DNA of 63,319 bases, counting the filler, from Reclinomonas americana ATCC 50394 (lineage: Eukaryota), in NCBI GenBank assembly GCA_048213135.1. It is 3 parts of 2 records of this genome, joined end to end, with 100 filler letters (N's around TTAATTAATTAA, not from the genome) between each part and the next. Parts side by side here need not be neighbours in the genome. Positions count along the whole stretch, not along the records: positions 1 to 31,736 come from PS015197.1; positions 31,837 to 61,517 come from PS015197.1; 1 more part is not named here. One strand, given 5' to 3'. Numbering within the stretch: the stretch's first letter is position 1; every line of letters starts with the position of its first letter. Both the position numbers and the translations under genes were made by a program. Below are positions 5,648-53,740 of the stretch, piece after piece. The notes under the pieces are model-generated. The model was not told where the DNA came from, did not search any database, and saw only the letters and a list, made by a program, of their open reading frames with translations.

Positions 5648-6062
5648 TGTGGTTGGTTATGAGGGGATGTGGACGCAGTGGCAGCTCTCTCTCTCTCTCT
5701 CTCTCTCGCTCTCGGTCTTGTGTGTGTCGAAGCGTGTCCTATAGCACGGCGGACGATGCTCTTTCTTTTTTCCGGCAAAAAATGGGGTAATCAACAAGAC
5801 AGCTGACGATGAAGACCAATCTTAAAGAGCATGGGTACCAGTCTTGTTGGCAGCAAAAGCCTCTGATCCAGGCATGCTTAGCATTGCAATCACGTGTTCG
5901 CCAATTCTCATGAAGCAGTCACTGGTCCATTCGTACACAATACATGAGCCTCATTTCCCTGCGATCACCTACAGACCCGGATGCAGTCCTATAATGTGTT
6001 GATCGAGAAGAAAACTCGCGAGACTTGTTGGCGATCACCTGATTGTTATGATTATTATCATT

Positions 6063-8751
6063 CTATAATTCTATCGTAAAATGCCCACACGCCTCACGCA
6101 GCGTACGCATCATGTCGAGCACCTCCGGCGCCGTCGGTCTCTTCGATTGCAAACTCATGCATCGCATGCCGAGCTCAAACATCGGTTCGGCGATGCGCGG
6201 CGTCCACTCAGCTCCTCCATCCACCAACTCCATAACGTGCAACGAGGCTGGCGAGTCGTCCCATTGCACAGACCACTCGCCGACTGTGACCACCGATTTG
6301 CCAGTGACCAGCTGCACCAGCACCATACCCATGCTGTACACGTCGTGCCTGGGTTGTGGAGTTCGCACGCGCATCGCCAGTGGGTCCATGTAGTCGAGGG
6401 TACCGGCGGCGGTGGTCGTCTGCGACAGGAGAGACACTGAGAGAGAGAGAGAGAGAGAGGAAAGGGAAAGGAGAAGAGAGCCAACAAACCTTGCCACCGG
6501 AGATCGATCGCGCGATGCCAAAGTCACCGAGACACGGCTCCAGACGGTGGTCGAGAAGCACGTTAGAGGGCTTGATGTCGCGGTGCACCACTTCATTCTG
6601 CGAGGAAGACGGAAAACGTTGAACTTGCATGCAACACAACTCGCGGAATCGAAAGGGCAAGGAGGCATCGGGGCGCAAGGAACAACGAGAAAAGAGAGAC
6701 AGGGTAAACCAAGAGAAAACTTCAACTGAACTGAGCAAAGTCACCCACATCGCACAAACCTTGTGCAAGAACACGACAGCCTCGGCCAGTCCGAGACCAA
6801 TCTGCACACGCTGCACCACAGAGAGTGGTTCTCGGCCGGCTCGAGGCAGCAGTAACAGGTCCTCGAGGTTGAGAACTCTGTGTACTTGCAAAGTGAGACG
6901 ATGATGGAGAAGGAAAGAGAGATATTGGATACGCACTGCAGGGCCTTGTACACGAGACAGCGCGCCTTGTCGTCGCCCACCGAGTACCCGACAAGAGGCA
7001 CAAGGCGACGGTCACGCAGGCGTCCGAGGGTGGCGACCTACGACGCGAGTGAGGAGAAAGAGAGAGAGAGAGATGAAACAGAACAGGAAGAGTGATAGAC
7101 CTCGCTCTCAAACGACTCCATCGTCCATGGCGCATCGGGGTCGAGCACCTTGATGGCCACGTAAGACTCGCGAAGGTAGCAAATGTACACGGCGCCCTGG
7201 CCGCCTTCGCCGACCTTGAGACGGGGGGAGAAAGAGTCGGTGGCGTGCATGATCTCGGACCACTCGAAGCGCTGCACCGCCACGTCGACTGTTCCAACCA
7301 CGTGAGCCAATGAGCATCGAATGCACGGGAGGAACACCACAGACCTTGTGCAAGGAGAAGACCCTGTTGCAGCTGCGAGATGAATTGATCCTTGTCCTGG
7401 AGCTGCTGTCGCACAGTCGTCAATTGAGCAGCGTACTCGTCCCTGTCGCGCAGAGCGCCAGTCAACTGCAGCGCGATTCGATCCCGGTCGGCCTGCAATT
7501 GGGCATTCTCTTGCTCAACCTCAGCAACTACACGCTGCCAGCGCGTATTGGCTCGCTGCAGGTGGTCACTCTTGTGCTCCTCTGCGTCCTTGTCACGACG
7601 CAAATCGGCGTTGGTTCGCAACAGCTCGGCATTCCTCTGCTCCACTGCTGTCATGCCTTTCTGCAGTTCGGCATTTTTGAGCTCCTCTTCCTCCTTGCCG
7701 CGTTGCAGCTCGGCATGCTTGTGTTCAGCCACGGCCTTGCCCTGCTGAAGCTCCGCGATGGTGTTCCGCAGTTCGGCATTCTTGCGCTCCTCTGCCTGCT
7801 TGAGTTGCAGTAGCTCCGCATTGACTCTCTCGTGTTCGCGATGCTCGGCGCTCCGTTCACGCCGCAGCTGGTCTTGCTCGTGCCGCGCTACGGCAAGATC
7901 GCGCTGAAGTTGGGCATTCAACGCGACCAGGTGCGCCATGGCGACATCATCAACCGCCTGCACAGCAGTGTATTCAACAAGCAAGAACAAGCAAGCAGGG
8001 AAACACACAGTGAGCAAACCTGGCGCGCTTGCACTGCATGCCAAGGAGGAGTGTGAGCCGACAGAGCAGTAAAATCAACAGTGACAAACAGGAGGGAGAG
8101 ACCGCACCTACTGATGGCGGCGGAGGCTGTGAAGCGAGACGGTCAAGCAAATCAGCGACTTGCTGCTTACCTTTGTCACGTGCTTGCTGAGTTGCTGTCT
8201 TGCCCTTCCTGTCCACCATCGGAATGAGTTCGGGGAAGCGAGTGGCGAGGAGTTCCACCACTGGTTCGCGTCCGTTCATCGCGGCAAGATGCAACGCCGA
8301 GGACTGGGGATTGAGAGCCTGATCATTGGAGACCGCCCGCACCATCTCCAGCGGGCATCGTCGCTCGTCGGCCAGCAACCACTCCACCACATGCACACGC
8401 CCATTGGTGGCAGCCGCCATCAGCGGTGTCAACCCAGCGTCTGTGACCATTCTTGCCAAGTGCGACCCAACACCACTCTCCTCCCACAAGAACTCCAACA
8501 CAGAGAGATGTCCTTTGTAGGCTGCACAGTGAAATGCCGAGGCACCTCGATCCATCTCCTCACTCTTCAGCAGAGTGCGTGCGCCCTCACGCGCCACCAG
8601 TTCGCGCAGGGAGTCCTGTTCACCATCCGCCCCCATCTGGAAGGCTTTCTTGCGCGGTGGCTGAGGAGGAGAGCTGCCGGAACGCGAACAGAGAACAGTG
8701 AGACATGAGGGGAAGAGACGGATGAATGCGTTCTGCCCACCCGAACCTCAT
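6063..8751 (-). CDS. Ankyrin-repeat / long coiled-coil / Ser-Thr kinase (IRAK/RLK-Pelle-like), copy 2, multi-exon
   Basis: Same exon plan as copy 1, including the ATGAG|GT first exon and the 14-nt phase-switch exon. FEWSEIMHATDSFSPRLKVGEGGQGAVY, HRDIKPSN, DFG, AGTLDYMDP. Heptad region 7350-7957. Stop TAG at 6063-6065. Confidence 0.92.
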
Positions 8752-10167: not shown

Positions 10168-10771
10168 ATGGGATCCGGCGCCTCCGCCCACTCCCCTCAC
10201 AAGCCCCGCGTGGAAGACTGGGAAGCCGACAGCTTCTACGAGGTCGACGTGATCCGCGTGAACTTTGTCGGCTAGGGCATCGCTGCAGCCGCCCTCCTCT
10301 TCCCTCCCGCGTGGCCCGTGGCCGTTCCCTCTCTGTTTGGCGGTCGCACCGGCGTGGGCGAGAACAGAATGGCCGAGCATCAGGGCCTCATTCTGCGTCA
10401 AGTCGGCGATGTGGCGTTCTGGTCGTGCCAGTTGCTGCAGGTCGAGGAGATTGACTGTCGTGTGTGTGCTCCTCATGCTCATCTGTCCCTCTTCACAGAG
10501 CGGACAAGTGGAGCTCATGCACCACTCGTCGGTGCGAGACGCCGGTCAGCACATTCAGGACTTGGTGTGGGGCGGTGGTGGCGAGTGGAAGTACGTGGAG
10601 CGGTGTGATGTTAATCCGCGACACTATCACCAGAATGTGTCGCACACTCGCGTCAGAGATTTCAATAAGAGGTGGGAGGCCGGCGGAGGCTACGATCTGT
10701 GGTCGCGCAACTGTCAGCACTTTTGTGCGGCGTTTTTGGAGGAGTTTGCGGGGGGTGCGAGGCGGATTTGA
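10168..10771 (+). CDS. Permuted papain-like peptidase (PPPDE/DeSI-LRAT clan) with N-myristoylation-like MGSGAS start; in-frame TAG at 10273-10275
   Basis: Candidate catalytic His (EHQGLIL) precedes YDLWSRNCQHFCAAFL. Inferred intron 10441-10498. Stop TGA at 10769-10771. May be a pseudogene. Confidence 0.7.
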
Positions 10772-11475
10772 TGGGGAGGAGAGCGGGGAAGAGAGGGCGA
10801 GAAAGAGGTGGGTGTAGTTTTGCGTGAATGATGAGGTGTTTTTGTAAAGGAGGATCCGAGGATGTTTAGCGCGACACGAGGGACAGAGGCCTTGGGGGCA
10901 GTCTCGAGATCGGTGGGGTGGTGAGATTGTGCGTCTCTTCCTCGGCTTCCGAAGAGGTTGCTGCTCTGTCGGGTCTGCGGATACCGCTGTACTTCCTATC
11001 GGCTCCTTCGCAGCGGGCGCGGTTGGGTACAGGGGTTGTGGATTTCAGCTGCATCGCGATATCGAGACGCTCATTGTGGCTCTTCCACTGTGTCCCTCGA
11101 GGTTGAATGCTGCCGTGATGCAGCTAGCTGTTCATGTGCTTTGTTGTACCCTGTGTGGAGTTGTTGTCCATCATCACCTCAGCACCCAGCTTCGCCTGAT
11201 CCATGTTCTCTCCGCAAGAGAGAGAGATTCAAAACAATGGACATGCATTGCTGGTCATGGAGAACAATCGCAGTTGACGATGCACCCAACTTTGCCCAGT
11301 TCTCTGACACTCCCTCTCTCCTTCTTCCTCCTCCTCCTCCAGGCCCTTCATGCATCACGACTTGTCACCTTTTCATCTTGCTGTTCGGATCAACGAATTC
11401 TCTGTCACTCTCTTCGTTTCTTGCATCACGCAGCGCGCGTGTGTGTGTGCGAAACAACAACCAAGACACACAAAA

Positions 11476-14400
11476 ATGGCCGCTCGCCGTCCTCCACCTC
11501 CTCGCCCTCACTCAACAACGACAACAACTCCTTCGCTGCCAATGTCTGCCTCTTCTCCGTGCGACGACGAGAAAGCAGACATGATGCTCGTCGACAGCAA
11601 GCAGCATGTGACGACGATGATGATGATGATGCATTCCGCCTCTCCCTTCAGCAGCATCAACGATGATGATGATGATGATGATGAGATGAAGAAGAAGAGC
11701 GCATTGGGATCGTCTTCTCATCGTGGTGNNNNNNNNNNNNNNNNNNNNNNNNNNNNNNNNNNNNNNNNNNNNNNNNNNNNNNNNNNNNNNNNNNNNNNNN
11801 NNNNNNNNNNNNNNNNNNNNNNNNNNNNNNNNNNNNNNNNNNNNNNNNNNNNNNNNNNNNNNNNNNNNNNNNNNNNNNNNNNNNNNNNNNNNNNNNNNNN
11901 NNNNNNNNNNNNNNNNNNNNNNNNNNNNNNNNNNNNNNNNNNNNNNNNNNNNNNNNNNNNNNNNNNNNNNNNNNNNNNNNNNNNNNNNNNNNNNNNNNNN
12001 NNNNNNNNNNNNNNNNNNNNNNNNNNNNNNNNNNNNNNNNNNNNNNNNNNNNNNNNNNNNNNNNNNNNNNNNNNNNNNNNNNNNNNNNNNNNNNNNNNNN
12101 NNNNNNNNNNNNNNNNNNNNNNNNNNNNNNNNNNNNNNNNNNNNNNNNNNNNNNNNNNNNNNNNNNNNNNNNNNNNNNNNNNNNNNNNNNNNNNNNNNNN
12201 NNNNNNNNNNNNNNNNNNNNNNNNNNNNNNNNNNNNNNNNNNNNNNNNNNNNNNNNNNNNNNNNNNNNNNNNNNNNNNNNNNNNNNNNNNNNNNNNNNNN
12301 NNNNNNNNNNNNNNNNNNNNNNNNNNNNNNNNNNNNNNNNNNNNNNNNNNNNNNNNNNNNNNNNNNNNNNNNNNNNNNNNNNNNNNNNNNNNNNNNNNNN
12401 NNNNNNNNNNNNNNNNNNNNNNNNNNNNNNNNNGTGATTGTGTGTCATCCCAAGATTAGCATGTATCTCACTGAATTCTCTCTCTCTATCTCTCTTTCCA
12501 TGATTGCACAGCAACGCGCGAGGAGGCCGCGAGTCGACTCGTCTCAGGTGGATCACAGCGAGGACTTGCTTGCACGTGATTCAGTTGAGACATCGGTCCG
12601 CAAGCGTTCTCTGGAGGTGAGCTCCGATGTGGCATGCGTCTCACTTTGCCTCTCGCTCGTGCATCACAGTCGACACCTGATGTTTCGTACATTCTCTGCA
12701 GGCGAATGCATCCAGCGATGATGAGATTGCACCGCCGAAAAAGAAGAAGGTTTGGATTCTCTGCTGCTGACATTGTTGTGCTTGTTCATCGTTCTGCATA
12801 TGGGTTCTTTGTGTCAGTGATGCATGTTGTGATTCACAGCGTGGCAAGACTCGAGCTGCGAAGAAGCCAGAGGAGTTGAGCGCAGACGAGAAGCTGCTGC
12901 TGAACAAGCTGCTCGTTTCGTGTGCATGCTCTTTCTGTCATCATTGCGATCCACTTTGCTCCTCCTCTCCTCGATGCACTCACCATTCTTACTATGGCTC
13001 TCGCAGCGATGCAATCGGAAGGGGATTCTGGTGAAGGCATTCGGGTTGATGGCACCGATCGTCCAAGGGTCTACGGTCATCCACCATCAGAGTGTTCTCT
13101 TTGATATTGCCTGTGGCGATCGCGGGGTTCCATTGTCGGAGCCGGGTCGCTCGTCGTCTGCAGTCAAGTGTGCATTTGGCAAGAAGCTCGGCATGACTGC
13201 CAAAGACTCACGCGGCTCAACACCCAAGTCAGTGGAGGGTGTGCTCCGGCGAGTGGGCCACTACATCGAGGTGAGCTAGCATGTGTGCCTGTGAATGACC
13301 GTGACATGTGAACCAACATGCAGATGATTGCACTGTGCAGATGAGCCAGCTCAGTGGCTCGGCTCTGGTGGATGCTGTCGATAGTCCACTGATTGTTGTG
13401 GATGAGCGCGGATATTCGGAGGTGCATTGTTTTGCATGATCTTCAGTGTCTGTTGTGATAAATGTCAGCTGACTTACGTTCACTCGGCTTGTATGTGACA
13501 GGAATCGTGGAACACATGGCCTCTTCATCATAAAACCAAGAAAGATCTTCTTCAGCCGTTCGTCACACAGGCCGTGAAAGCGATGCGCGAGTGCGGTGGT
13601 CTCATGACTGCTCTGCTTCGAAACCATCACCTCACCGAAGCCGGGATAGCACGCGCCGTCACGTGGTGCCGATCGAAAGGTCTGCAATCTCATACCGCTG
13701 TTGGTGTTGCTTGCACTGGTGTTGACCAGCACCGCGCAGAGTATGGCGATGTGAAGATGGAGGTGAAGAAGGAGGAGGAAAATGACGGAGAGGGTAATGT
13801 CGTCAAGTTCGAAGACGATGACATCAAGGTATGCAGCAATTGTGTACGAGCAACAAAAGCTGCGGGCGCGCTTGTCTTCGTGGACCATCGATATCTTGTG
13901 CGTTCACGCAGGCGGATGTAGGCCGTGACGATGACGGAGAAACAAAGCCGAGCAAGGTACGGCGATGCCCGATGTTTGTGGATAGTTGGTGAGGCAGGTG
14001 TTGATTGTGGATGTTGGATGGGGTATGCACTTGCAGCGCGTCAAGTGTGGTCGCCGTGTGCCGGATGCGGATTTGAACAAGGACGAGCAGATGGTGCTGG
14101 ACAGACTGCATGTTGCGTATGCGTGGCCACAACATCTCAGCAAGGCAGAGTGATTGACTCTGCCATGTGGCTGCCTGTCATAACACCTGCGCGTGTGTGC
14201 GTAAATGTGTGCGAACAGCGATACAAGAAGAAGAAGATACTGGTGATGGCATTCGGCATCATGGCTCCTATTGTGAAGCAATCCGCAGTCTGGCATCATC
14301 AGCGCGTTCTGTTTGAACTCGCATGCACGGAGTGTGGCATCCCTTCGTCAGGAGCTGGCTCTCCGTCATCAGCAGTAATGGAAGCATTCGGCAAGACTCT

Positions 14401-39637: not shown

Positions 39638-40639
39638 GATGCGGACGATACAAGTTGGCGGACACGCGCGTGGGACAGAAAGAATGGCCATGGCTGATCA
39701 GCGTGATATAGGGGGTACCGTCTGCTTCTGCATCATCTGCTGCAGTTCACTTGTCCCTCCCAGCACGTGCGTGGAAAGTTGTCTCGGACTTCGATTCCAT
39801 TTCTTTCTTGTCACTTACAAATCCCCGGAATTTCNNNNNNNNNNNNNNNNNNNNNNNNNNNNNNNNNNNNNNNNNNNNNNNNNNNNNNNNNNNNNNNNNN
39901 NNNNNNNNNNNNNNNNNNNNNNNNNNNNNNNNNNNNNNNNNNNNNNNNNNNNNNNNNNNNNNNNNNNNNNNNNNNNNNNNNNNNNNNNNNNNNNNNNNNN
40001 NNNNNNNNNNNNNNNNNNNNNNNNNNNNNNNNNNNNNNNNNNNNNNNNNNNNNNNNNNNNNNNNNNNNNNNNNNNNNNNNNNNNNNNNNNNNNNNNNNNN
40101 NNNNNNNNNNNNNNNNNNNNNNNNNNNNNNNNNNNNNNNNNNNNNNNNNNNNNNNNNNNNNNNNNNNNNNNNNNNNNNNNNNNNNNNNNNNNNNNNNNNN
40201 NNNNNNNNNNNNNNNNNNNNNNNNNNNNNNNNNNNNNNNNNNNNNNNNNNNNNNNNNNNNNNNNNNNNNNNNNNNNNNNNNNNNNNNNNNNNNNNNNNNN
40301 NNNNNNNNNNNNNNNNNNNNNNNNNNNNNNNNNNNNNNNNNNNNNNNNNNNNNNNNNNNNNNNNNNNNNNNNNNNNNNNNNNNNNNNNNNNNNNNNNNNN
40401 NNNNNNNNNNNNNNNNNNNNNNNNNNNNNNNNNNNNNNNNNNNNNNNNNNNNNNNNNNNNNNNNNNNNNNNNNNNNNNNNNNNNNNNNNNNNNNNNNNNN
40501 NNNNNNNNNNNNNNNNNNNNNNNNNNNNNNNNNNNNNNNNNNNNNNNNNNNNNNNNNNNNATAGGAGGAGAAGAGAGAGGGAGAGGTAGAAAGAAGAGGG
40601 AGAAGAAAAGAATGAAATAAGAGGGCGAGTATCCACTAA

Positions 40640-43600
40640 CCGCATCATTCCCGGACCGCCAAATCCAGGAGGTGGCGGCATGTCGGGGTAGAAGGGTGGT
40701 GGTGGCATATCTCGACGGCCTGCGAAGACAGCGCATGAGCCGCAGACATCAAACACGTCGCACTTTCAAAAATGTAGCCCACCTGGTAGTGACGGCGCCG
40801 GCAGCACACCACCAGCACCACTGGTACCGCCCGGCGGCATGCCCATGGAGGGCGGCGGTGGTCCGCCGTTGCCGCCCATGGACGCCGGTGGCATGAGAGG
40901 GTAGCCCATGCCGGGTGGGGGTGGTGGGTAACGCATGGGTGGTGGCTGCTGCTGTTGCTGTTGCTGCTGCTGTTGTTGTTGTCGCATGTTGTCGTTGGGG
41001 GCGGAGAGGTGCTCGCGGCGGAATTTTTCCGAGCGGAGCATCTTTTGCAGGGCGGCGTATTGCTTGAAGGTTTGTGAGTTGAAGCCGTAGTTGAAGAAGT
41101 CGGAGATGTCCACGCCTAGTAAGGGGAAGGTATGAGGCAAAGGGGGGGAAGGGAGAAGGGGGGATAAGGGGAGAGGAGAGAGAAGGAAAAGAGAAGGAAA
41201 AGAGAGAGAAGGAACAGATACACAAACGGAAAGAGAGAGAGAGAGAGATCAGAGGAGAATGACGCAAAGGGGGGAAATGGGGAAGGGAAGGGGGTGAAAG
41301 AAAATAGAGAGAGAGGAGAGAGAAGGAACACATACACAAACGGAAAGAGAGAGATGCAGAGAAGTAGAATGAGGCAAAGGGAGCGATGGAAAAGAGAGAG
41401 GAGAAAGGACGGAATGAAAGAAGGAACAGATACGCAAACAGAAAGAGAGCGAGATGTGGAGAAGTAGAATGAGGCAAATGGGGAAAGGCAAGGGAGCGAA
41501 GAAAAAGGTAGAAGAGAGAGAGAGGGAACAGATACACAAACACAGCAAGCGAGTGAGAGATGAAGAGAAAATGTGGAAGGGAAGGGGGTTGAAAGAAAAT
41601 AGAGAGGAGAGAGAGAGGGAACAGATACACACAAACACAGCAAGCGAGTGAGAGATGAATATAAGTAAAATGTGGAAGGGACGGGGGTGAAAGAAAATCG
41701 AGAGGAGAGAAGGAAAAGAGATAGAGAAGGAACATATACACAAACGGAAAGAGAGAGATGTAGAGAAGTAGAATGAGGCAAAGGAAGGAAGCGATATAAA
41801 AAGAGAGAGGAGAAAGGACGGAATGGAGAGAGAAGGAACCCCACAAACAGAAAGAGAGAGTGAGAGATGAAGAGAAGAAGAATGCGGCAAAGGGGGGAAA
41901 TAGGGAAGAGAAGGGGGTGAAAGAAATAGAGAGCGAAGAGACGACGATGAAAAAGTTGAATGGAGAGAGAATGAACCCACAACAGAAAGAGAGAGAGAGA
42001 GGTAGAAAAAGGAGGGGAAGAAAAACAACAACTGAAAGTTGGGAATNNNNNNNNNNNNNNNNNNNNNNNNNNNNNNNNNNNNNNNNNNNNNNNNNNNNNN
42101 NNNNNNNNNNNNNNNNNNNNNNNNNNNNNNNNNNNNNNNNNNNNNNNNNNNNNNNNNNNNNNNNNNNNNNNNNNNNNNNNNNNNNNNNNNNNNNNNNNNN
42201 NNNNNNNNNNNNNNNNNNNNNNNNNNNNNNNNNNNNNNNAGAGAGAGAGAGAGAGAGCGGAACCAAGACCCTCTGCAAAACGATCGAGAGACTGTATGAG
42301 AAGGATGAGAGCGAGGGAAACAAGACAAGGGAAAGCGCAGAGGAAAGCCCACAGTGGTAAATCAGAAAGAGAGAGAACGATTGTGCGAGAGATTGTATGA
42401 GAAGTGGAAAGAAAGCAAGAGGCGAGGAATACAATGGCGAGCACATGAAGGGATACCAGACTTCGCACGGAAAGTGTGTGTGAGAGAGAGGGAGAGACAG
42501 AGAGAGACCAGACAATGCATGCCAAGATAGAGAGAGAACATTTGTGCGATAGACAAGATGGAAAGGGAGAGAAGCAAGAGTCGAGCAATACAACGGAGAG
42601 CACACGGAGGGATACCAGATTCCGCACGGTGAGAGAGAGAGAAAGAGAAACCAGACACTGCATGAGAAGGAGAAAGAGAGCGAAGGAAACAATGCTTAGA
42701 ATAGAAACGAGACAGATTGTGTAAGAATGAGCAAGAAGCACGCGGAGCGGGAGTCGGGGAATGGGAGAGACCCTGACGAGCAGACAGCCCTCATGTAGAC
42801 TCGGCGCGCTATTGCACCCACAACAAACCTTTCATCACTCTCATACTCCTCCTCCCCGTCCGTTACTGCTTGTACACCACCAGCAAGCGGATCCCCCTCA
42901 TTATCATCGTCACCGATTGCATTCCCATCGCCAGCATCAGCACTCCCATCAGCCTTGCCAGCACTTCAGACAAGACAGTCAATGACCCGAAGGTTAGCAA
43001 TGCGTGGTGCGAGGATTGTGAGAGACCTGTGCTCGTCAAAGCCCATGGCAGCGTCCACAGCGGCAGTGGATCCAGCTGGGAAGGGAGACGGGGTGAGTGG
43101 AGAGAGACAAGTAAAGACAGTCGAAAGAGAGAAAGAAGGAGAGAGAGAGAGAGAGAAATGGAGAGAGAAAGAGCGAGAGAGAGATAGAAAGAGAGAGAGA
43201 GAGAGGGAGAGCGAGAGCGAGAGCGACACAATGAGATGGAGAGAGGGAAAGGGAGAGTCATGGAGAGAGAAACAGAGAGAGAGAGAGAAAGAGCGAGACT
43301 AAAGAGAAAGAGCGAGACAAAGAGAGAGAGAGAAAGAGAGAGTCATGGAGAGAGAAACAGAGAGACAAGAATGAGAGAGAAAGAGAGAACGAGAGAAGAA
43401 AGAGAACCAAAGACAATCAAGCGTAAGGAGCAGCGAAAGAGAATGACTGGAGCGCGCACGAAAGGAACTTCCGTGCTTGCAGTGATCGCGCAAACACTGC
43501 CAATCTGTGCGTGGGAGTGAAACAACGACTATCGAGCTTCATCAAAGATGCATTCTCTCTCTCTCTCTGCGAGTGTGCGTGTGCGTGAGAGAGCAAGAGA

Positions 43601-43683
43601 GAGTCAAACGAAATGCAAGTCGAGTGCGCGCGCGTGTGAGACAGTGTGTGCAAGGAAATGCAAGTGATGTTGTAACCAAAACC

Positions 43684-43754
<71 letters not shown>

Positions 43755-44538
43755 CTACTACNNNNNNNNNNNNNNNNNNNNNNNNNNNNNNNNNNNNNNN
43801 NNNNNNNNNNNNNNNNNNNNNNNNNNNNNNNNNNNNNNNNNNNNNNNNNNNNNNNNNNNNNNNNNNNNNNNNNNNNNNNNNNNNNNNNNNNNNNNNNNNN
43901 NNNNNNNNNNNNNNNNNNNNNNNNNNNNNNNNNNNNNNNNNNNNNNNNNNNNNNNNNNNNNNNNNNNNNNNNNNNNNNNNNNNNNNNNNNNNNNNNNNNN
44001 NNNNNNNNNNNNNNNNNNNNNNNNNNNNNNNNNNNNNNNNNNNNNNNNNNNNNNNNNNNNNNNNNNNNNNNNNNNNNNNNNNNNNNNNNNNNNNNNNNNN
44101 NNNNNNNNNNNNNNNNNNNNNNNNNNNNNNNNNNNNNNNNNNNNNNNNNNNNNNNNNNNNNNNNNNNNNNNNNNNNNNNNNNNNNNNNNNNNNNNNNNNN
44201 NNNNNNNNNNNNNNNNNNNNNNNNNNNNNNNNNNNNNNNNNNNNNNNNNNNNNNNNNNNNNNNNNNNNNNNNNNNNNNNNNNNNNNNNNNNNNNNNNNNN
44301 NNNNNNNNNNNNNNNNNNNNNNNNNNNNNNNNNNNNNNNNNNNNNNNNNNNNNNNNNNNNNNNNNNNNNNNNNNNNNNNNNNNNNNNNNNNNNNNNNNNN
44401 NNNNNNNNNNNNNNNNNNNNNNNNNNNNNNNNNNNNNNNNNNNNNNNAATATTTCACCCCATTTTTTTCGTTTTCTGCGTTGCGCGCGCGCGTACCAGAG
44501 CCAAAGAGCGCGGCGTAATCGTCGTCATCGTCGGCCAT
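40640..44538 (-). CDS. FIP1: Pre-mRNA 3'-end processing factor Fip1 (3' end in gap)
   Basis: Acidic N-terminus MADDDDDYAALFG and acidic exons at 42830-43076. Fip1 motif GVDISDFFNYGFNSQTFKQY, followed by a Pro/Gly/Gln-rich tail. Confidence 0.85.
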
Positions 44539-44910
44539 TTGGCGCTCGCTCACTTGCACAAAAAAGAATACGTAGGACAGATGCGCGTCCTGTGCGTGTC
44601 CTGTGCGCGCGCAACTCAAATTTGTTTTTTGTGTGTCGCGATGGTGAGCGCGCGCAGAGAAAGAGAGAGAGAGAGGAAAAGAGAGAGGAAAGGGGGGAAA
44701 TTGCGCTGTGGGTGAAAGAAGAGAAAGAGAGTAGTGAAATTGAGTTGTTTTTTTCTCTCGCAGACAGGTGTTCACTGTGAGAGTGAGTGTGTGTGTGTGT
44801 GCGTGAGACAGAGAGGCAGAGACAGAGGGAATGCGTGCTGTGCCTGCGAGAAGAAGAAAAGCGCGCACAATTTTGAGTTGTTTTTCTGTCACTGACTGTT
44901 ACTCATTGTG

Positions 44911-44971
<61 letters not shown>

Positions 44972-45012
44972 AGAGAGAGAGAGAGAGACGAGNNNNNNNN
45001 NNNNNNNNNNNN

Positions 45013-45800
45013 AAAGGGCGATGTGAGACAAGGGCGGGGAAGCAGAATGGGAAGACTTGGATGTCATAGTTGGAAGGGAGCGAGAGGATGCGCCTACTCT
45101 TTCTCTTGCCCTTTGTTCTCTACCCGTGTCGTGGAAGGAGAGAGGAAGGGGTGGGCGAAGAGGAGAAGACAAGGGCGGGGAAGAAGAATGGGAAGACTTG
45201 GATGTCCGGGAGGGCGAGGATGCGCTCTCTCTTTCTCTTGTCCTTTGGTCTCTTATCCTAGTGGTGGGCGAAGACAAGGAAAGGGGCGTAATAGAATGGG
45301 AAGACATGGATGTCATAGTTGGGGGAGCGAGAGGATGCGCCTTCTCGTTCCGTTGTCTTTGTTCTCTACCCGTGTCTTGAAGGGAGGGAGAAGAGGAGGG
45401 CGATCTGAGACAAGGGAGGGCAGAATGCGCTCTCGCTTTCTCTTGTCCTTTGGTCTCTACTCTTGTCGGGGAAGAAGAGAGGAAGGGGTGGGCATGTCAT
45501 TGTTTCAAGGGAGCGAGAGGTTGCGCCTTCTCCCGTCTCGTGGGCAGAGGGAGAAGAGGAGGGCGATCTGAGACAAGGGAAGGCGAGGATTCGTGCTCTC
45601 TTCCTCTTGTCTTTTGTTCTCTACTCATGTCGTGGAAGGAGGGAGGAAGGGGTGGGTCTCTTGTCCTTTGTTCTCTACCCGTGTCGTGGAAGGAGAGAGG
45701 AAGGGGTGGGTGGGTGAAGAGGATGGCGAACGAAGACAAGGGAGGGCGAGAATGCGCCTTCTCTTTTTCTTGTCCTTTGGTCTCTTACCCTTGTCGGGGA
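45013..45800. repeat. Degenerate minisatellite (~120-140 bp units), probably intronic in the AP-1 sigma gene
   Basis: Recurring GACAAGGG..GAATGGGAAGAC..TCTTGTCCTTTG..CTACCCGTGTCGTGGAAGG blocks. Confidence 0.75.
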
Positions 45801-46158
45801 AGGGGAGGGCGTGTGCGTGTATGTGTGTGTGAGAGAGAGAGAGACGCACGAGCTATTGTCTCTCTTCGGCGACCTTATGCACTCCCTTCTGTCTGTTCTC
45901 TGGTGTTCCCTCCTCCTCCGTTTCTTCTGCGTTTTGCTTTCTCTCTGCGAGAGAGAGAGACCCACGAGCTATTTACTCTCTGCGGCGATATTGTGCACTC
46001 CCTCCTCTCTTTTATCTGGTGCCCTCTTTTCTTCGTATCCTTTGTGTGCTACATTATCTGCCAAACCTGCAGTGAATTTCTCTCTTTCTCATTCTAATAT
46101 CCCTTTCCCTTGCCCCCTCACCCCCCTTCTCCCCTTATTCCCCATCCCCATCCCACAG

Positions 46159-46502
46159 CTACGCCAGCCTCTTCTTCATCTTCTGCGTCGACAAGAGCGA
46201 CAACGAGCTGGTGTCGCTGGAGCTGATCCACCACCTCGTCGAGGTACTAGACCGGTACTTTGGCAACGTGTGCGAGCTCGACCTCATCTTCAACTTCCAC
46301 AAGGCGTACTACATTATCGATGAAGTTGCGGGGGCGTGGAAGGAGGGTGTGGGGGAAGGTATCTTTGGCCTTTGCTCATTTGCGACCGCAGATGTTCCTC
46401 GCCGGCGAAGTACAAGAGAGCTCCAAGAAGAGCATTCTGCGTGCCGTTGCCGCGCAAGATCAACTGATGGACAGCTTCTCCGACCCGAAGACCGAGACGT
46501 GA
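46159..46502 (+). CDS. AP1S: Adaptor complex AP-1 sigma subunit, last two exons (5' exons not visible)
   Basis: [64 protein letters not shown]. Intron 46325-46391. Confidence 0.9.
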
Positions 46503-47352
46503 TGGGAGTGGTGGGAGAGGAAAAAATGTCCGCCAGGGTGGCACGGATGCGGAGGTGTTGAATGTACCGATCCGTAGTCAAAGGAGGCTAAAGGTGAATG
46601 GAAAGGTCTCCCTTACGTGGTGAGTGGATTGAAAGGAGGAGAGGGCATGACCAACACAAGAAGAGATGACAACAGCAACAACAACAACAACTTTACTAAT
46701 CCAAACAGCAAGACAGCAGCATGAGGATCACCATCTTGAGTGAGCACCAGAAACTCAGACATCACGAAAAAAAGCAAGAGCAGACAAGCAAATCGCGAAG
46801 AAGGCTGAAAGGAAAGCACAACGTTCCCAGAGAAATTAGAGAAGAAAGGAAGGCGACCCTGATCATGACAAGAAGAGAAGAAAAGAAAGAGAGTGAAAGA
46901 CGTCCGCTGCGCATGCGCTTGCGCGCGCCGCTGCGCCTAATTGCAAAAAGAAAAAAAGAGTAATATTAATGGAAATGCATCAAGGTGATGCTACCATGAT
47001 GTTCTCTTGTACTCTGTGTGCAGTTGTTGTCCATCATCATCTCAACACCGCCTTTCGTAATCCATTTTCTCCCGGAGAGGTCCTGAAAACAAAGAGACAT
47101 GCATTGCGCATGCTGGTCATGGAGAACAATCGCAGTTCATGATACCCAAGGATGCCCAGTTCTTGGACATCCCTCTCCTCTCTCCTTCTTTCCCTCTCAC
47201 CACACTCCTCCTCCAGGCCCTCCTCACATCACGACTTGTCACCTTTTCATCTTGCTGTTCGGATCAACGAACCTTCATTCTCTTGACTCTCTTCGTTTCT
47301 TGCATCACGCAGTGCGCGCGTGTGTGCGAAACAACAGCAAAGACACACACAA

Positions 47353-50300
47353 ATGGCCTCTCATCCTCCTCCCCCTCCACCGCGCCCTCAATCAACAACA
47401 ACAACAACTACTCCTTCACTGCCAATGTCTGCCTCTTCTCCGTGCGACGACGAGAAAGCAGACATGATGCTCATCGACAGCAAGCAGCATGTGACGACGA
47501 TGATGATGCATTCCTCCTCTCCCTTCATCAACAGCAACGGCAACGATGATGATGAGAAGAAGAAGAAGAAGAGCGCATCGGGGTCGTCTGCTCATCGTGG
47601 TGTGCCTGCGATGGCGAGGCGACGAGTGCCTTTCTCCTCGTCCTCTTCCACGTCTGTCACCACCACCAGTGTCACTGCCAAGAAAGGTNNNNNNNNNNNN
47701 NNNNNNNNNNNNNNNNNNNNNNNNNNNNNNNNNNNNNNNNNNNNNNNNNNNNNNNNNNNTGCGTCTCTCTCTTGCTGTCTTTGGTATTCTCGCATCAAGT
47801 GTTGTCTCACCTGAGCAGTGCATGCACACAGCTGCTGACCAGGTGCACATGGAACACACAGCGATGGAAGGCATCGTCGAGGTACAGTGATTGTGTGTGT
47901 CATCCCAAGATGAGCATGTCTCTCACTGAATTCTCTCTGTCTCTCTCTTTCCATGTTTGCACAGCAACGTGCGAGGAGGCCGCGAGTTGACTCGTCTCTG
48001 GTGGATCACAGTGAGGACCTGCCTGCACGTGACTCAGAAGAGACATCGCCCCGCAAGCGATCTCTGGAGGTGAGCTCTGATGCGGCATGCGTCTCACTTT
48101 GCCTCTCGCTCGTGCATCACAGTCGAGACACATGATGTTTTCTCTTCACTTCTCCACAGGTGGATGCATCCAGCGATGAAGAGCTTGCACCGCCGAAGAA
48201 AAAGAAGAAGGTGTGGATTCTCTGACATTGACATTGTTGTGCTTGTTCATCGATCTGCACATGGGTTCCATGTGTCAATGATGCTTGTTGTGGATTCACA
48301 GCGTGCGAGGAATCGAGTTGCGAAAGAGCCAGAGGAGTTGAGCGCAGACGAGCAGCTGCTACTGAACAAGCTGCTTGTTGCGTGTGCATGCTCCATCTGT
48401 CATCATTGCAACCCAGCTCTCTCCTCCTTCTCCTTGTTGCACTCACCATTCTATCTGTGCCACTCGCAGCGATCCGATCGGAAGAGGATCCTGGTGAAGG
48501 CATTCGGCCTGATGGCACCGATCGTCCAAGGGTCTACGGTCGTCCACCACCAGAGTGCTCTCTTTGAGATTGCCTGTGATGAGTGCAGGATTCCGTCGTC
48601 GGAGCGGGGTCGCACGTCGTCTGCAGTCAAGTGTGCATTTGGCAAGAAACTTGGCGTGAGTGCCAGTGATTCACGCAGCAAAACGCCCAAGTCAATGGAG
48701 GGTGTGCTCCAGTGCGTGAGCAACTTCATCGAGGTGAGCGAACATACGTGGTGACGACCGTGGCATGTGAACCAATATGTAGACGATTGCACTGTGCAGA
48801 TGAGCCAGCTCAGTGGCGAGGCTCTGGCGGATGCTGTTGAGAGACCGCTGATCGTTGTCGATGAGCGAGGGTATTCGGAGGTGCATTGTTTGCATGATCT
48901 TCAGTGGCTGTTGTGATTATGTCGACTGACTTTCGTTCACTCGGCTTGCTTGTTACAGGAATCTTGGAAGAGACTGCCTCCTCATCAAAACCCCAGGAAA
49001 GACCAGCTTCAGCCGTTTGTCAAGCAGGTCATGGATGCATTGCTCGAGTCTGAAGGTCTCATAACTGCTCTGCTTCGAGACTGCCACCTCTCTGAGGTTG
49101 AGATTTCACGCGCCGTCAAGTGGTGCCAATCGAAAGGTCTGCATTCGCGTGCGGCTGTTGGCGTTGCTCTTGCATTGGTGTTTATCGGCAGCACGCAGAA
49201 TACGGGGATGTGAAGATGGTGGTGAAGAAGGCGGAGGAAAATGACGGAGAGGACGATGACATCAAGGTATGCAGCAATAGTGTACGAGCAACAAAAGCTG
49301 CGGGCGAGCAAGTCTTCGTGGAGTTGGTCGACCATTAATATCTTGTGCGTTCATAGGCGGATGCAGGCCGTGACGATGACGGAGAAAGAAAGCCGAGCAA
49401 GGTACGACGATGCCAAGTGTCTGTGCATAGTTGGTGAGGCAGGTGTTCATTGTGTGTTGTTTGGGCTGTGCATTTGCAGCGCGACAAGCGTGGTCGTCGT
49501 GTATTCGATGCTATCATGACCAGGGACGAGCAGATGGTGCTGGACAGACTGCATGTTGCGTGTGCGTGTCCAATGCACCTCAGCAAGGCGGATTGATTGA
49601 CTCTTCCATGTCATAACACCTGGCGCGCGTGTGTGTGTGAATAGCGATGCAACAGGAAGAAGATTCTGGTGACGGCATTCGGCATCATGGCTCCTATTGT
49701 GAAGCAATCCGCAGTCTGGCATCATCAGCGCGGTCTTTTTGAACTCGCCTGCACGGAGTGTGGCATTCCTTCGTCAGGAGCTGGCTCTCCGTCGTCCTCA
49801 GTCATGGACTCATTCGGCAAGAGTCTTGGTAGTGTCGTCCACTATTCACGCCAAGAGACGCGTAAGTCAGTTGAAGGAGTGCTCCAGAGCATGAGCACCT
49901 TCATCAAGGTGAGCATCTGCCTCTGCTGCCCATCACGCGCGGCTAGAAAGTGAGCCAATATCGATGCATGTGCAACTCTGCAGAAGAGTGAACTGCGCGG
50001 TGCTGCTCTGGTGGATGCCATTGAGAGACCATTGATTGTGGTGGATGAACGTGGCCATTCTGAGGTGCATTGACTGTCCTTTGTGCGCTCTGTGCATATC
50101 CTGGTGTGTGTCGACTCATGTGCTTCTTCCACAACGTCGGTTGTGCTGCAGGAATCATGGGCGATGATGGAGAAGAGACATAGACGGAACATGGGTGACC
50201 GTCTCCTGCCGCTCGTCGCCCGAGCCGCGCAGGCCCTTCGCGAGTGTCCTGGCTTTCAGGCGTCGCTGATTCGAGACGGCTGCCTCTCCGAGGCGGAGAT

Positions 50301-53300
50301 CGCACGGGCCGTCGAGTGGTGCAGTGAGAGAGGTTTGATGGTATAGGGTGCGTTCTACTGTGTGCATTGTGTTAGGACTGACGAGCAAGATGCAGCTCTA
50401 CTGGAGGCGACGGTGCTGAAGAAAGAAGAGATGAAGGAGGAGGAGAAGGAGGATGGGTCGAGGGTCGACTGGGAAGACGATGAAGACGACGACATGGATG
50501 AGGCTGACAGGAGGAGGAAGGTATGACCATGGATGATTGGACAGGTGCACGTTGTGGCAACATCTCATCTGTACATGCACAGCGACGAGGGAGTGGTTCT
50601 GTGACGCTGAGCCACGGCGGACAACTGGTGCTGGCAAGGCTGCTTGTTGCGTGTGTATCGCAATCTTGTCATTCTTTGGTAATCGTCTGGCTGATTGAGT
50701 GTTCATCAATTCACTCATATGTTGCATGCGAGAGCAGTGCTGCAACAAGATGAAGTTACTGGTGACGGCGTTTGGCATCATGGCTCCGATGGTTATGGGA
50801 TCCACAGTCCGCCATCATCAGCGCGTTCTTGTCGAACTCGCCTGCAAGGAGTGCGACATTTCTTCATCAAAAGCAGACTGTCTTTTGTCGGAAGTCGTGA
50901 GCTCGTTCGGCAGTAGCCTTGGCGACTTCGTCAGGACAGCACGCAGCAAGACGCCCAAGTCGGTTGAGGGAGTTCTCCAGAGCATGAGCAACTTTATCGA
51001 AGTGAGCATCGTCCATCTCGCACGACTGATTCAATGATCAGCGCTAACATATGTGCCACTATGCAGAAGAGCGAACTGCGCGGTGCTGCCCTGGTGGATG
51101 CCATTGAGAGACCACTGATTGCGGTGGATGAACGTGGTCATTCGGAGGTGTGGTTGCCTTTCACTCTGTGTACGATATTCGTGATCGCTGGTGGTTTCTC
51201 ATTCTTTGTTTTCCGGAATTCTTATGTTAGGAGTCGTCAAAATTGCCGGGACTGCAGCGCTATAAGCAGAGTCCTCTTCTGTTGTTCTTGACACGGGCTG
51301 TGGATGCTCTCCACAACTGTCCTGGCCTGCTGACCACTCTACTTCGAGGCGGTTCTCTTTCCGAGGTGGCGATTGCACGGGCCGCAGAGTGGTGCAGAGG
51401 AAGAGGTTTGGCTATGTGACGGTTGATAGATAGATGCAGTATGTACAAGCGCTGACAATTAGGCACAGTTCTGAGAGAGATGGAGAATGTGAAGGAGGAG
51501 AAGATGGAGGATGAGCAGGATGAGGATTTCATCGAGAAAGAGCGCGACGACGAGAAGCGAAGTGGGAAAAGCAAGGTACATCATTCAGTAAGCTGCAGGA
51601 TGCTTGAGCATCCCAAATTACTGGACTTTCGTTCCACAGCGGAGCAGGGTTGGTCATTTGAAGCTGAGTGTCAATGAGCAACTGACGCTGGCGAAACTGC
51701 TTGTTGCGTGTTGTCACACGTCTCCAATTGCAAATATGTTATCAAGAAATCCTCACTTGAATCTGCTCATCGCATATGTGAACAGGGCGGCAACAGGAAG
51801 AGGATGCTGGTGAAGGCATTCGGTCTCATGGCACCCCTGGCCATGCCGTCCACAGTCCTCCACCACCAGCGCCTTCTCTTGCAGCTTGCCTGTGGCGAAT
51901 GCGGAATACCCTCGAAGGGACCTGGCAGCCCGTCATCCGTTATCATGCCTGCATTCGGCAAGAGTCTTGCCAAGAGTGCCGGCGCGGCACGCTGCAAGAC
52001 GCCCAAGTCAGTGGAGGGTGTGCTTGAGAGCGTGAGCAACTTCATCGAGGTACGTGTCCCTGTGTTGACATTCAACAGTGACGTGCCTGTCAGCTGACCT
52101 GCCTTCCATTGTGTGCATGTGGAATCTTCAGAAAAGCGGTCTTCGAGGAGTCGAGCTGGTAGATGCTGTCGAGCGACCGCTGATTGTAATTGACGAACGC
52201 GGTTACTCGGAGGCATGTGGACTTGTGATTGTGTGCATTGATGTGCATCAATGATGTTGTCTCACTTTCTCGATTCTCGGGTGGCAGGAATTAGCCAAGT
52301 TGACGCAGATAAGCAGCAGGCAAGATCCTCTCCTGCCATTCGTCACTCAAGCCATGCAGGCTCTTCGCAACTTCCCTGACCTGCTTACCACTCTGCTTCG
52401 AGACGGTTGCGTCTCTGAGGAAGATATGGAGCGTGCCGCCGAGTGGTGCAGTGAACGAGGTTCGACTGCGTGCCATTCTTTGCTGCGCAGTGTGTCCGTG
52501 TTCTGACAAGCAAGGGACAGCTCTGAGGGAGATGGAGATGGTGAAGAAAGAGGAGAAGAGAGAGGAGGACGAGCAGGCGGATGATGATGACGGCAGCGAG
52601 AATGAGGACGACGACGGGAAGGGAAGCAGGAGACACAAGGTACGCCCGTCACTGCCTTCTATGAGACGTGAATGATGTGTGCATTTCACAACTGTATGGC
52701 TCTCAACCACAGCGCCACAAGAGTGGCCCTGCGAAGTTGAGCGTCAACGAGCAACTGATGCTCCTGAGACTACATGTTGCGTGTTGCCGTTGCCTCGCTG
52801 CTCGGCTCCTCGCTTCCACTCTCCCAACAAACATGCGAACAGGCATGCGACAGGAAGATGGTGCTGGTGAAGGCATTTGGCCTCATGGCACCTGTAGTCA
52901 TGGCATCCACAGTCCGCCATCATCAGCGCCTTCTCTTCCAGCTTGCCTGTGACGAATGTGGCATGCCGTCAGTGGGACCAGGCAGCCCTTCATTCGCAGT
53001 CAAATCTGCATTTGGCAAGAGTCTTGCCGATAGTGCCGGCACGACACGCAAAAGGACTCCAAAGTCAATTGAGGGTGTGCTGGCGAGCATGAGCCACTTC
53101 ATCGAGGTGAGTGTCAGTATGCTATTTCCGTGTTTCGTCTGATCGTGACGAACTGATGACTGACTTGAGTTCAATATATGCGGGATCATCAGAAGAGTGG
53201 CCTTCGAGGAGCTGCGCTGCTGGATGCTGTCGAGAGACCACTGATTGTGATTGACGAACATGGCTACTCCGAGGCATGTGCACAGCTGTTTGTGCTCTTG

Positions 53301-53740
53301 CGTATCGATGTAAGCCTACTCACAATGCTTCTTCTCGCGATCGGGTGGCAGGAATCGACAAAGTCGTTGAGGGGAGGTCCTCCAAGTTCTCTTCTGCCAT
53401 TTGTCACACAGGCCATGCATCTGCTCCATAACTGTCCTGGTCTGCTGGCTACACTGATTCGTGACAGGTGCCTTTCGACAGCGGAGATTGAGCGTGCTGG
53501 TGTGTGCTCCAAATGCACCAGTCTGGGAGCTTCTGTTGTTGTTTGCATTGCGTGCCACAATTAGCACTGACTCGCATGATGCAGTGCATGGTGACGAGAA
53601 GCCGCTGAAGATGGAGCTGGTGAAGAAAGAGGAGGAGGAGGAGGAGGAGGAGGAGGAGGAGGAGGAGGAGGAGGAGGAGGAGGAGGAGGAGGAGGAGGAG
53701 GAGGAGGAGGAGGAGGAGGAGGAGGACGGAGGAGGAGGAC
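47353..53740 (+). CDS. Unknown five-repeat protein family, copy D (stop codon in gap)
   Basis: Same N-terminus. Repeats start near 48302, 49479, 50583, 51640 and 52713. Ends in a long (GAG)n poly-Glu run. Confidence 0.85.

What the first reader, a model, noticed from the sequence alone, without database searches (positions are those of the whole stretch)
12840..53740. Hypervariable helix face in every module of an unknown tandem-domain family: candidate new modular recognition code
Seen: between the conserved flanks F[GSNI]xxL[GAR] and T[PR]KS[VIM][EDG]GVL, each repeat has a 9-residue segment, and all 17 complete ones differ. Repeat 1: MTAKDSRGS (A), ETASHSRSS (B), VSASDSRSK (D). Repeat 2: LFVDRARTN (A), IVVQVARSN (B), SVVHYSRQE (D). 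Repeat 3: QYANYIRNK, DVVQRARKK, HVVESARRK, DFVRTARSK (A-D). Repeat 4: CSANSIRCR, NSANKARNR, GSANAARGM, KSAGAARCK (A-D). Repeat 5: KGATTARYK (A), KGAMTARDN (C), DSAGTTRKR (D). Position 7 is always Arg, always the codon CGC, and always preceded by an A. Position 3 is always Ala or Val. Positions 1, 4, 5, 8 and 9 are often replaced by multi-base codon changes even between equivalent repeats of paralogs, while neighbouring synonymous sites stay fixed. Established: i, i+3/4, i+7/8 spacing is one face of an alpha helix, and variation focused on contact residues is the signature of C2H2 zinc-finger arrays (KRAB-ZNF, PRDM9); TALE and PPR repeats likewise carry specificity in a few variable residues. 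Inference: these are diversifying specificity residues of a multi-module binder. A DNA/RNA ligand is suggested by the basic residues, NLS-like motifs and acidic linkers; a protein ligand, as in an immune or allorecognition receptor, is not excluded.
Basis: partly seen in the sequence, partly recalled or inferred. Interest (0 to 1): 0.92.

Follow-up and report, generated by a model that had tools for sequence, protein, structure and literature searches.

The report
Fast-evolving helix in orphan repeat proteins
Four related genes of an unidentified single-celled eukaryote each encode a chain of up to five copies of an unknown protein module, and in every copy the same four surface positions of one helix change about three times faster than silent DNA, as expected of the sequence-reading part of a customisable DNA-binding protein, although binding has not been shown.

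Summary
Observation confirmed. Four intron-rich paralogues (A, D near-complete; B, C cut by gaps) carry 18 copies of a ~235-aa orphan module. All 17 complete 9-residue segments differ, and Arg7 is CGC in 17 of 17. The modules are under purifying selection overall (dN/dS about 0.3). Segment positions 1, 4, 5 and 8 are positively selected (omega 2.6-3.7), also under a multi-hit model and in 4 of 4 held-out splits; position 9 is not supported. AlphaFold places the segment in the C-terminal half of a 21-residue helix, opposite its hydrophobic face. An SV40-type NLS, SUMO-consensus acidic linkers, a basic N-half and polar variable residues favour a nuclear nucleic-acid binder. The layout (variable i, i+3, i+7; fixed basic i+6) equals the base and phosphate contacts of BEN-domain helix 5, but BEN membership was not shown, and no homologue or fold match was found. 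Best reading (0.6): KRAB-ZNF/PRDM9-like diversifying DNA readers built from a different module. Ligand and expression are untested. Silent sites inside the segment are unusually frozen, which is unexplained. The scan's earlier notes held no look-alike of two exons on other DNA.

The parts
11476..18244 (+). Gene A: low-complexity N-terminus (interrupted by N-gap 11729-12433), NLS exon, five modules, acidic tail, stop
   Evidence: 28 exons from 12512 splice to 1217 codons with the only stop at the end
26194..31736 (+). Gene B: N-terminus, modules 1-3 and the first half of module 4, cut by a gap; the usual acceptor before module 2 is missing (possible lesion or 40-nt intron)
31837..32457 (-). Inverted fragment: end of a module-1 linker to the large exon of a module 2, stopping just before the variable segment; probably a misoriented piece of gene C
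   Evidence: self-BLAST, sequence; placement is inference
32945..36654 (+). Gene C: end of module 2, modules 3-5 (gap 34469-34869), acidic tail, stop
47353..53740 (+). Gene D: N-terminus, NLS exon, five modules, poly-Glu tail running into a gap
   Evidence: 28 exons from 47965 splice to 1231 codons without a stop
12702..12749 (+). Exon ending in PPKKKK, an SV40-type NLS consensus (also 27683-27733 in B and 48160-48210 in D)
   Evidence: NLS consensus is recalled knowledge
13007..13270 (+). Large 88-codon exon of module A1 (type example): helices about 4-15, 21-38, 51-71, 76-88; segment = residues 63-71; fifth selected site = residue 21
13740..13828 (+). Acidic linker exon with psi-K-x-E SUMO consensus (type example; motif in 11 of 13 linker exons and 3 of 3 terminal exons)
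13193..13219 (+). Variable segment A1
14405..14431 (+). Variable segment A2
15494..15520 (+). Variable segment A3
16540..16566 (+). Variable segment A4
17589..17615 (+). Variable segment A5
28179..28205 (+). Variable segment B1
29373..29399 (+). Variable segment B2
30478..30504 (+). Variable segment B3
31528..31554 (+). Variable segment B4
32945..32968 (+). Variable segment C2, cut by a gap and at a contig edge; left out of the segment counts
34023..34049 (+). Variable segment C3
34954..34980 (+). Variable segment C4
36002..36028 (+). Variable segment C5
48656..48682 (+). Variable segment D1
49831..49857 (+). Variable segment D2
50924..50950 (+). Variable segment D3
51972..51998 (+). Variable segment D4
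53029..53055 (+). Variable segment D5

Best explanation
A lineage-specific family of nuclear, sequence-specific DNA-binding proteins. Each protein strings five modules on flexible acidic, SUMO-consensus linkers. In each module the basic N-half ends in a long helix whose C-terminal half lies in the DNA major groove: the fixed hydrophobic residues (-9, -5, -1, +3, +6) pack it on the domain, the invariant Arg7 clamps the phosphate backbone, and positions 1, 4, 5 and 8 read bases. After gene and module duplication, selection repeatedly changed these four residues, giving each module a new target, as in KRAB-ZNF and PRDM9 arrays; the likeliest driver is conflict with transposons, viruses or satellite DNA. 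Shown: gene structure, purifying selection on the frame, positive selection on the four positions. Predicted: helix and exposure. Inferred: nuclear location, DNA ligand, backbone role of the Arg, BEN-like ancestry (about 0.3), the driver.
For: Intact frames: A and D each splice over 28 exons with 54 of 54 introns GT/GC-AG, 60-107 nt; dN/dS of the frame 0.21-0.46 per class. M8 vs M8a 2dlnL 51, omega 3.0; with double and triple hits allowed 2dlnL 31 (186 columns) and 34 (128 gap-free columns), omega 2.6 and 3.7, posterior 0.996-1.0 at positions 1, 4, 5, 8. Held-out test: sites picked in some module classes have beta 2.05-5.7 in the others, 4 of 4 splits p<0.005. First-two-base divergence at the four sites 0.554 against intron divergence 0.222. 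Helix 51-71 in both models, pLDDT 76-84 over residues 51-80; variable face at 90 degrees, hydrophobic moment at 234 degrees. 49 of 68 residues at the four positions are R/K/N/Q/D/E/H/S/T, 3 of 68 are aromatic. N-half net charge +3 to +9 in 16 of 16 complete N-halves; PPKKKK in 3 of 3 genes with an N-terminus; psi-K-x-E in 11 of 13 linker exons. In BEN structures the base contacts are at i, i+3, i+7 (NACC1 D462, T465, R469) or i, i+3, i+7, i+8 (BEND3 E807, R810, R814, K815), and the i+6 residue is a basic backbone contact in NACC1 (R468), Insv (K357) and Bsg25A (R355).
Confidence: 0.6

Rival explanations
1. The helix face binds proteins: the family is an intracellular (probably nuclear) receptor, decoy or restriction factor whose modules each grip a changing viral, symbiont or self-recognition protein.
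For: Positive selection on one exposed face fits any arms race. Tandem ankyrin-kinase genes sit beside gene A and other agents report diversifying ankyrin and WD40 arrays in this genome (unchecked notes). First ESM Atlas hits with a family were HEAT/ARM-like helical repeats, all under 0.9. One BEN domain (BEND3 BD1) binds protein, not DNA.
Against: Variable residues lack Trp and Phe and hold only 3 Tyr in 68, unlike typical protein paratopes (recalled). An invariant Arg flanks the face. No signalling domain (kinase, NACHT, TIR) and no membrane-spanning or signal-like stretch was found: best 19-residue hydropathy 1.62 and 1.85 lies within the repeated module; Pfam gave no significant family.
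Confidence: 0.2
2. The modules read RNA (PPR/PUF-like logic), for example pre-mRNA in an organism with unusual intron starts and micro-exons.
For: Nuclear signals and basic N-half fit RNA as well as DNA. The genome uses GTTGCG intron starts (8 of 54 introns here) and other agents report runs of micro-exons.
Against: A long helix with variable i, i+3, i+4, i+7 and a basic i+6 is major-groove geometry; single-stranded RNA readers usually stack bases on aromatic residues (recalled), which are rare here. Splicing factors are not expected to be under recurrent positive selection (inference).
Confidence: 0.1
3. The variability is made by a codon-local mutational or gene-conversion process, with or without selection; the frozen silent sites are the footprint of template-directed replacement.
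For: Silent rate at codons 2/3/6/7 is estimated at zero (LRT 22 against the background rate), triple-base changes are fitted at the four sites (0.015) but not elsewhere (0), and alpha=beta is not rejected there. The segment is the most silent-conserved of 120 windows. A 15-base palindrome abuts the segment in 6 of 7 class 4/5 modules.
Against: Regional hypermutation would raise, not lower, silent change in the interleaved codons. Modules of the same gene are no more alike than those of different genes (permutation p 0.49-0.90). The palindrome is imperfect in 10 of 10 class 1-3 modules and no shared RNA fold stands out (z -2.3 to +0.5 in 6 modules). The pattern follows protein helix periodicity. 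Exon-edge windows are nearly as silent-conserved, so a splicing enhancer may explain the freeze.
Confidence: 0.07
4. Ordinary relaxed constraint on a surface helix of decaying duplicates, or assembly error.
For: Draft assembly with many gaps, an inverted fragment and a possible splice lesion in B.
Against: Rates exceed introns and silent sites about 2.5-fold; M8a (relaxation to omega 1) is rejected; frames A and D are intact; the same columns recur in independent module classes.
Confidence: 0.03

Closest known systems
KRAB zinc-finger proteins and PRDM9 (tandem C2H2 arrays)
   Same: Tandem modules with a conserved frame and positive selection on a few residues of one helix, especially between recent duplicates (PMC4592553, passages; PMC3890296, start of abstract); clustered paralogues; nuclear signals.
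   Different: Module is about 235 aa, split over five exons, joined by long acidic linkers; no C2H2 pattern, no KRAB or SET domain by Pfam; modules are 52-83% identical in the pairs compared, not a homogenised minisatellite; only four genes seen.
BEN-domain proteins, especially multi-BEN BEND3 (four domains), NACC1, Insensitive/Bsg25A, LIN-14
   Same: All-helical domain of about 90 aa ending in a long helix; base contacts at i, i+3, i+7(+8) and a basic backbone contact at i+6 match positions 1, 4, 8(9) and Arg7; tandem copies in one protein; BEN domains can be undetectable by sequence (LIN-14).
   Different: No Pfam, PDB-sequence, Atlas or fold hit to BEN; no Leu-Asp motif; longer penultimate helix and loop; each unit carries a second ~105-aa half of no known family; no report of positively selected BEN arrays or of protist tandem BEN proteins was seen in the listings.
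Homeodomain / helix-turn-helix recognition helices (atypical HNF1 homeodomain)
   Different: Scores are within background; the Trp-Phe-x-Asn signature (recalled) is absent.
TALE and PPR repeat proteins
   Same: Specificity carried by a few variable residues per repeat (recalled).
   Different: Those are 33-35-aa contiguous solenoid repeats reading one base each (recalled); here five large spaced domains.

Membership tests
BEN domain | Match to the Pfam BEN profile or to BEN chains by sequence | tested here: inconclusive
   No BEN row for 16 large exons, for two natural read-through frames holding the upstream exon, or for a 96-position profile against PDB sequences. That the Pfam copy holds the BEN model is assumed; LIN-14 shows that BEN can escape sequence search.
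BEN domain | Five helices plus a middle loop in a globular fold (PMC10789644) | tested here: inconclusive
   Models lack the upstream exon; four helices predicted in the large exon; no BEN entry in the 50 rows listed per model.
BEN domain | Long C-terminal helix with base contacts at i, i+3, i+7 and a basic backbone residue at i+6 | tested here: met
   Spacing only: selected positions 1, 4, (5), 8 and invariant Arg7 on helix 51-71 against residue numbers. Not specific to BEN.
BEN domain | Conserved Leu-Asp before the penultimate helix (NACC1 L432-D433) | tested here: not met
   No conserved Leu-Asp at the start of helix 21-38 in 16 of 16 large exons.
BEN domain | Sequence-specific DNA binding through the last helix | not testable with these tools
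   Needs PBM/SELEX or a protein-DNA model.
Tandem C2H2 zinc-finger arrays (KRAB-ZNF, PRDM9) | Zinc finger with two Cys and two His, about 28-aa repeat | tested here: not met
   The module has a His-His pair followed by one Cys-x2-Cys, in the opposite order and spacing, and a ~235-aa period; no zinc-finger family passes Pfam.
Tandem C2H2 zinc-finger arrays (KRAB-ZNF, PRDM9) | Positive selection on the specificity residues of the helix between duplicates | tested here: met
   compare PMC4592553.
Tandem C2H2 zinc-finger arrays (KRAB-ZNF, PRDM9) | KRAB or PR/SET effector domain | tested here: inconclusive
   None in module exons; the known N-terminus is low-complexity and was not scanned; part of it lies in gaps.
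Homeodomain | Trp-Phe-x-Asn-x-Arg in the recognition helix (recalled) | tested here: not met
   Only the Arg is present; positions 2-3 are variable/Ala-Val.
TALE / PPR repeats | Contiguous 33-35-aa helical repeats (recalled) | tested here: not met
   Five spaced modules of about 235 aa; no such Pfam family.
Repeat-domain immune receptors (ankyrin, WD40, LRR; NLR-like) | Known repeat scaffold joined to a signalling domain | tested here: not met
   No such Pfam family in module exons; the five modules fill the protein from the NLS to the stop.

The most novel reading that the evidence does not exclude
An independently evolved, KRAB-ZNF-like repertoire of programmable DNA readers in a protist, built from a module with no detectable relative (a new fold or a remote BEN derivative), in which four residues of one helix form a swappable recognition code, possibly renewed by a codon-level exchange process that leaves the interleaved silent sites frozen.
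Probability: 0.3. Interest if true: 0.9.

Novelty: new variant of a known kind. Interest (0 to 1): 0.72.

Why it matters
Few modular DNA-reading scaffolds with a residue-level code are known (zinc fingers, TALEs, and PPR/PUF for RNA; recalled). If these modules read DNA, 17 natural helix variants on one frame make the code directly testable by binding arrays and helix swaps, and would show that an arms-race repertoire of DNA readers arose outside animals from another scaffold. If the module proves BEN-derived, it would extend BEN to positively selected tandem arrays in a protist. Even under the protein-ligand rival it is an orphan diversifying binder.

Tried and rejected
Homologue searches were blank. 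The search for homologous proteins: large-exon alignment, longer proteins; upstream plus large exon, near lengths; C-half, longer proteins: none. HMMER over 1.84 billion representatives gave 1 hit, rejected as a bacterial cadherin-like adhesin whose seven weak stretches (2-9 bits) were summed. Contig scans: metagenomes, viruses, prokaryote genomes none; the one locus is an opposite-strand word match inside a long unrelated frame that looks like a heavy-metal ATPase. These collections hold few intron-rich eukaryotes and only single exons or read-through frames could be queried, so absence is weak evidence. Pfam, PDB sequences and ESM Atlas (all hits under 0.9) gave nothing significant. Fold searches: Foldseek PDB, BFVD (best an unnamed 77-aa protein, E 2.8, TM 0.51), VIA wide and VIA second look: no clear match; BEN was not listed, which does not exclude it. 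The two halves of the module are not related to each other. No sequencing run was listed; no whole genome is held, so the family size is unknown. Gene conversion between modules of one gene: not supported. Conserved RNA hairpin at the segment: not supported. Adenine-only, DGR-like mutagenesis: rejected because third bases vary as much as first and second (0.571 against 0.554). A Walker A/B reading of the F-G-K-S and P-L-I-V-V-D-E motifs was considered and dropped: the first lies inside a predicted helix without the Gly-rich loop. Alignments A2-A4 were misaligned and not used. Two BEN papers were not held.
Full report
Setting. The window is a gapped draft of an intron-rich eukaryote (6724 N). 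No whole genome is held and no sequencing run was listed. Notes of other agents call it an unidentified flagellated or jakobid-like protist with GTTGCG intron starts (unchecked); I saw that start in 8 of 54 introns of genes A and D.

Anatomy. Self-BLAST and exon mapping give four paralogues on the + strand: A (11476-18244), B (26194-31736, cut by a gap in module 4), C (32945-36654, start lost in gaps; an inverted module-2 fragment lies at 31837-32457) and D (47353-53740). A and D each splice over 28 exons to open frames of 1217 and 1231 codons, not counting the N-terminus; 54 of 54 introns are GT-AG or GC-AG and 60-107 nt long. Each protein has a low-complexity N-terminus, an exon ending in PPKKKK, five modules and an acidic tail. 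A module is a short basic exon, an 88-codon exon, a 27-codon exon, a ~58-codon exon and an acidic linker exon. Equivalent modules of paralogues are 66-83% identical in the 13 pairs printed, different modules of gene A 52-74%. Module classes 1-5 form clades, so the five-module layout is older than the gene duplications. B lacks the usual acceptor before module 2 and may be damaged.

All 17 complete segments are as described; C2 is cut and was left out of segment counts. Between equivalent modules, 54 of 105 codon pairs at positions 1/4/5/8/9 differ at two or three bases, against 271 of 3576 outside the segment, and positions 1, 4, 8, 5 head the ranking of all columns.

It is more than relaxation. 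I wrote codon site models in Python (not PAML; branch lengths fixed from M0, naive empirical Bayes, some tree nodes weak). M8 beats M7 (2dlnL 81) and M8a (51), with omega 3.0. Allowing double and triple base changes, M8 still beats M8a (31 on 186 columns; 34 on the 128 gap-free columns), omega 2.6 and 3.7; on the gap-free set exactly five sites pass: segment positions 1, 4, 5, 8 and residue 21 of the large exon, posterior 0.998-1.0. The full set adds four sites in an indel-prone stretch of the C-half, which I trust less; its last seven columns also held intron-derived codons for the three class-5 modules, an error that does not touch the 128-column runs. Position 9 is not supported. Without the deep tree, per-class star trees give beta 1.6, at the upper bound, 4.2, 2.4 and 2.2 for classes 1-5 (class 1 and 5 not significant alone), 3.4 pooled, and sites picked in some classes have beta 2.05-5.7 in the held-out classes in 4 of 4 splits. 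Introns of the same pairs differ at 0.222 per site, first and second codon bases of the four positions at 0.554, other codons at 0.100.

Structure. Only unspliced frames could be folded: the large exon with 16 copies (pLDDT 69.8, pTM 0.58) and a natural read-through of module A3 with two introns in frame (pLDDT 60, pTM 0.36). Both place residues 51-71 in one helix, followed by the Thr-Pro-Lys-Ser turn and another helix. The segment is the C-terminal half of that helix. Conserved hydrophobic residues point to 234 degrees on the wheel, the four variable ones to 90 degrees, with the invariant Arg at the edge. No fold search gave a clear match and no sequence search a homologue.

What it most likely does. 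The signs point to the nucleus and to nucleic acid: an SV40-type NLS in 3 of 3 genes with an N-terminus, a psi-K-x-E SUMO consensus before an acidic run in 11 of 13 linker exons and 3 of 3 tails (both consensus motifs recalled), net charge +3 to +9 in 16 of 16 complete N-halves and mostly neutral or negative C-halves, and variable residues that are 49 of 68 polar and 3 of 68 aromatic. The layout matches a major-groove recognition helix. I recalled a likeness to BEN domains and checked it in papers. In NACC1 helix 5, D462, T465 and R469 contact bases and N466, R468 the backbone (PMC11472053, passages); in BEND3 BD4 the base-specific residues are E807, R810, R814, K815 (PMC8887127, passages); Insv uses D351 and K354 (PMC7764960 prints 352) with K357 on the backbone, and Bsg25A D349, K352 and R355 (PMC7764960, passages). 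Set on position 1, these give base readers at 1, 4, 8, 9 and a basic backbone clamp at 7, as here. I therefore read the proteins as five-headed DNA readers whose specificity residues were driven apart after duplication, the pattern described for KRAB-ZFPs (PMC4592553, passages). The fifth selected site lies 42 residues before position 1, near where BEN domains have a second DNA-touching loop (NACC1 R421, 41 residues), but no alignment supports that equivalence.

Limits. The spacing is that of any helix face; only the fixed Arg adds to it, and homeodomains share it (recalled). BEN membership is not established: the Leu-Asp motif is absent and no search listed BEN, although LIN-14 shows that sequence search can miss the domain (PMC10080584, part 1 of 2 of the text) and my models lacked the upstream exon. 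A protein ligand (0.2) or RNA ligand (0.1) stays open. I file it as working like a zinc-finger array, not as a member of any named family.

Unexplained. Silent sites in codons 2, 3, 6, 7 are frozen: silent rate fitted at zero (LRT 22, assuming an even background), 10 of 282 same-residue pairs differ, second lowest of 120 equally spaced windows, and the whole segment is the lowest of 120 nine-codon windows. At the four variable codons a joint rise of silent and replacement rates cannot be rejected (p 0.094) and triple-base changes are fitted there alone. Conversion among modules of one gene was not detected (p 0.49-0.90), no shared RNA fold stands out, and a palindrome next to the segment is perfect in 6 of 7 class 4/5 modules only. 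A splicing enhancer, conversion tracts kept by selection, or chance remain possible.

Novelty. Four literature searches bearing on it (listings only) showed no positively selected BEN array and no such protist family. The two papers most likely to list remote BEN relatives (Pan 2023, Abhiman 2008) were not held, and no supplements were read, so a described relative may have been missed. The scan's earlier notes held no look-alike for two exons, no word match and nothing near. Verdict: a real, statistically robust diversifying helix face in an orphan multi-module family; new variant of a known kind; interest 0.72.

Noticed in passing
window 1190-8747, - strand: Two or more tandem ankyrin plus protein-kinase genes (Pfam hits at 1190-1780, 4886-5656, 6066-7011, 7977-8747), directly upstream of gene A; probably the hypervariable ankyrin-kinase family that other agents noted elsewhere in this genome.
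   Followed up: no
window 10262-10768 (+), 19293-25306 (-), 37206-37634 (-), 46076-46558 (+), 62354-62830 (-): Neighbouring genes by Pfam: PPPDE peptidase (weak), POP1 of RNase P/MRP between A and B, AAT/C45 acyltransferase (weak) after C, clathrin adaptor small chain before D, a CBS domain. The paralogues are interspersed with housekeeping genes.
   Followed up: no
window 31737-31836 and 61518-61617: Two 44-N runs around a 12-base six-frame-stop linker (read at 31781-31792; the second is inferred from the same gap pattern): artificial joins, so order and orientation across them are uncertain.
   Followed up: partly
window 18815-19082 vs 11033-11325 and 46972-47177: An inverted, about 73% identical copy of the DNA upstream of genes A and D lies just after gene A; perhaps the remnant of another copy or of a shared promoter.
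   Followed up: no
window 16525-16539 and equivalent places: A 15-base palindrome (codons Gly-Lys-Ser-Leu-Ala) abuts the variable segment in 6 of 7 class 4/5 modules; the inverted fragment 31837-32457 ends at the centre of the equivalent site.
   Followed up: partly
window, intron before each large exon (e.g. 14112-14218): This intron starts with GTTGCG or a one-base variant in 16 of 16 modules where it is visible; the intron after the 27-codon exon starts with GC in the class 4/5 modules.
   Followed up: partly
window 929-1015 vs 46669-46755: An 87-base inverted match at 95% identity, 45 kb apart; possibly a small mobile element.
   Followed up: no
first third of the ~58-codon exon (e.g. 13502-13560): A second variable, indel-prone, often basic stretch in the C-half with 2 sites at posterior above 0.95; could be a second contact surface.
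   Followed up: partly
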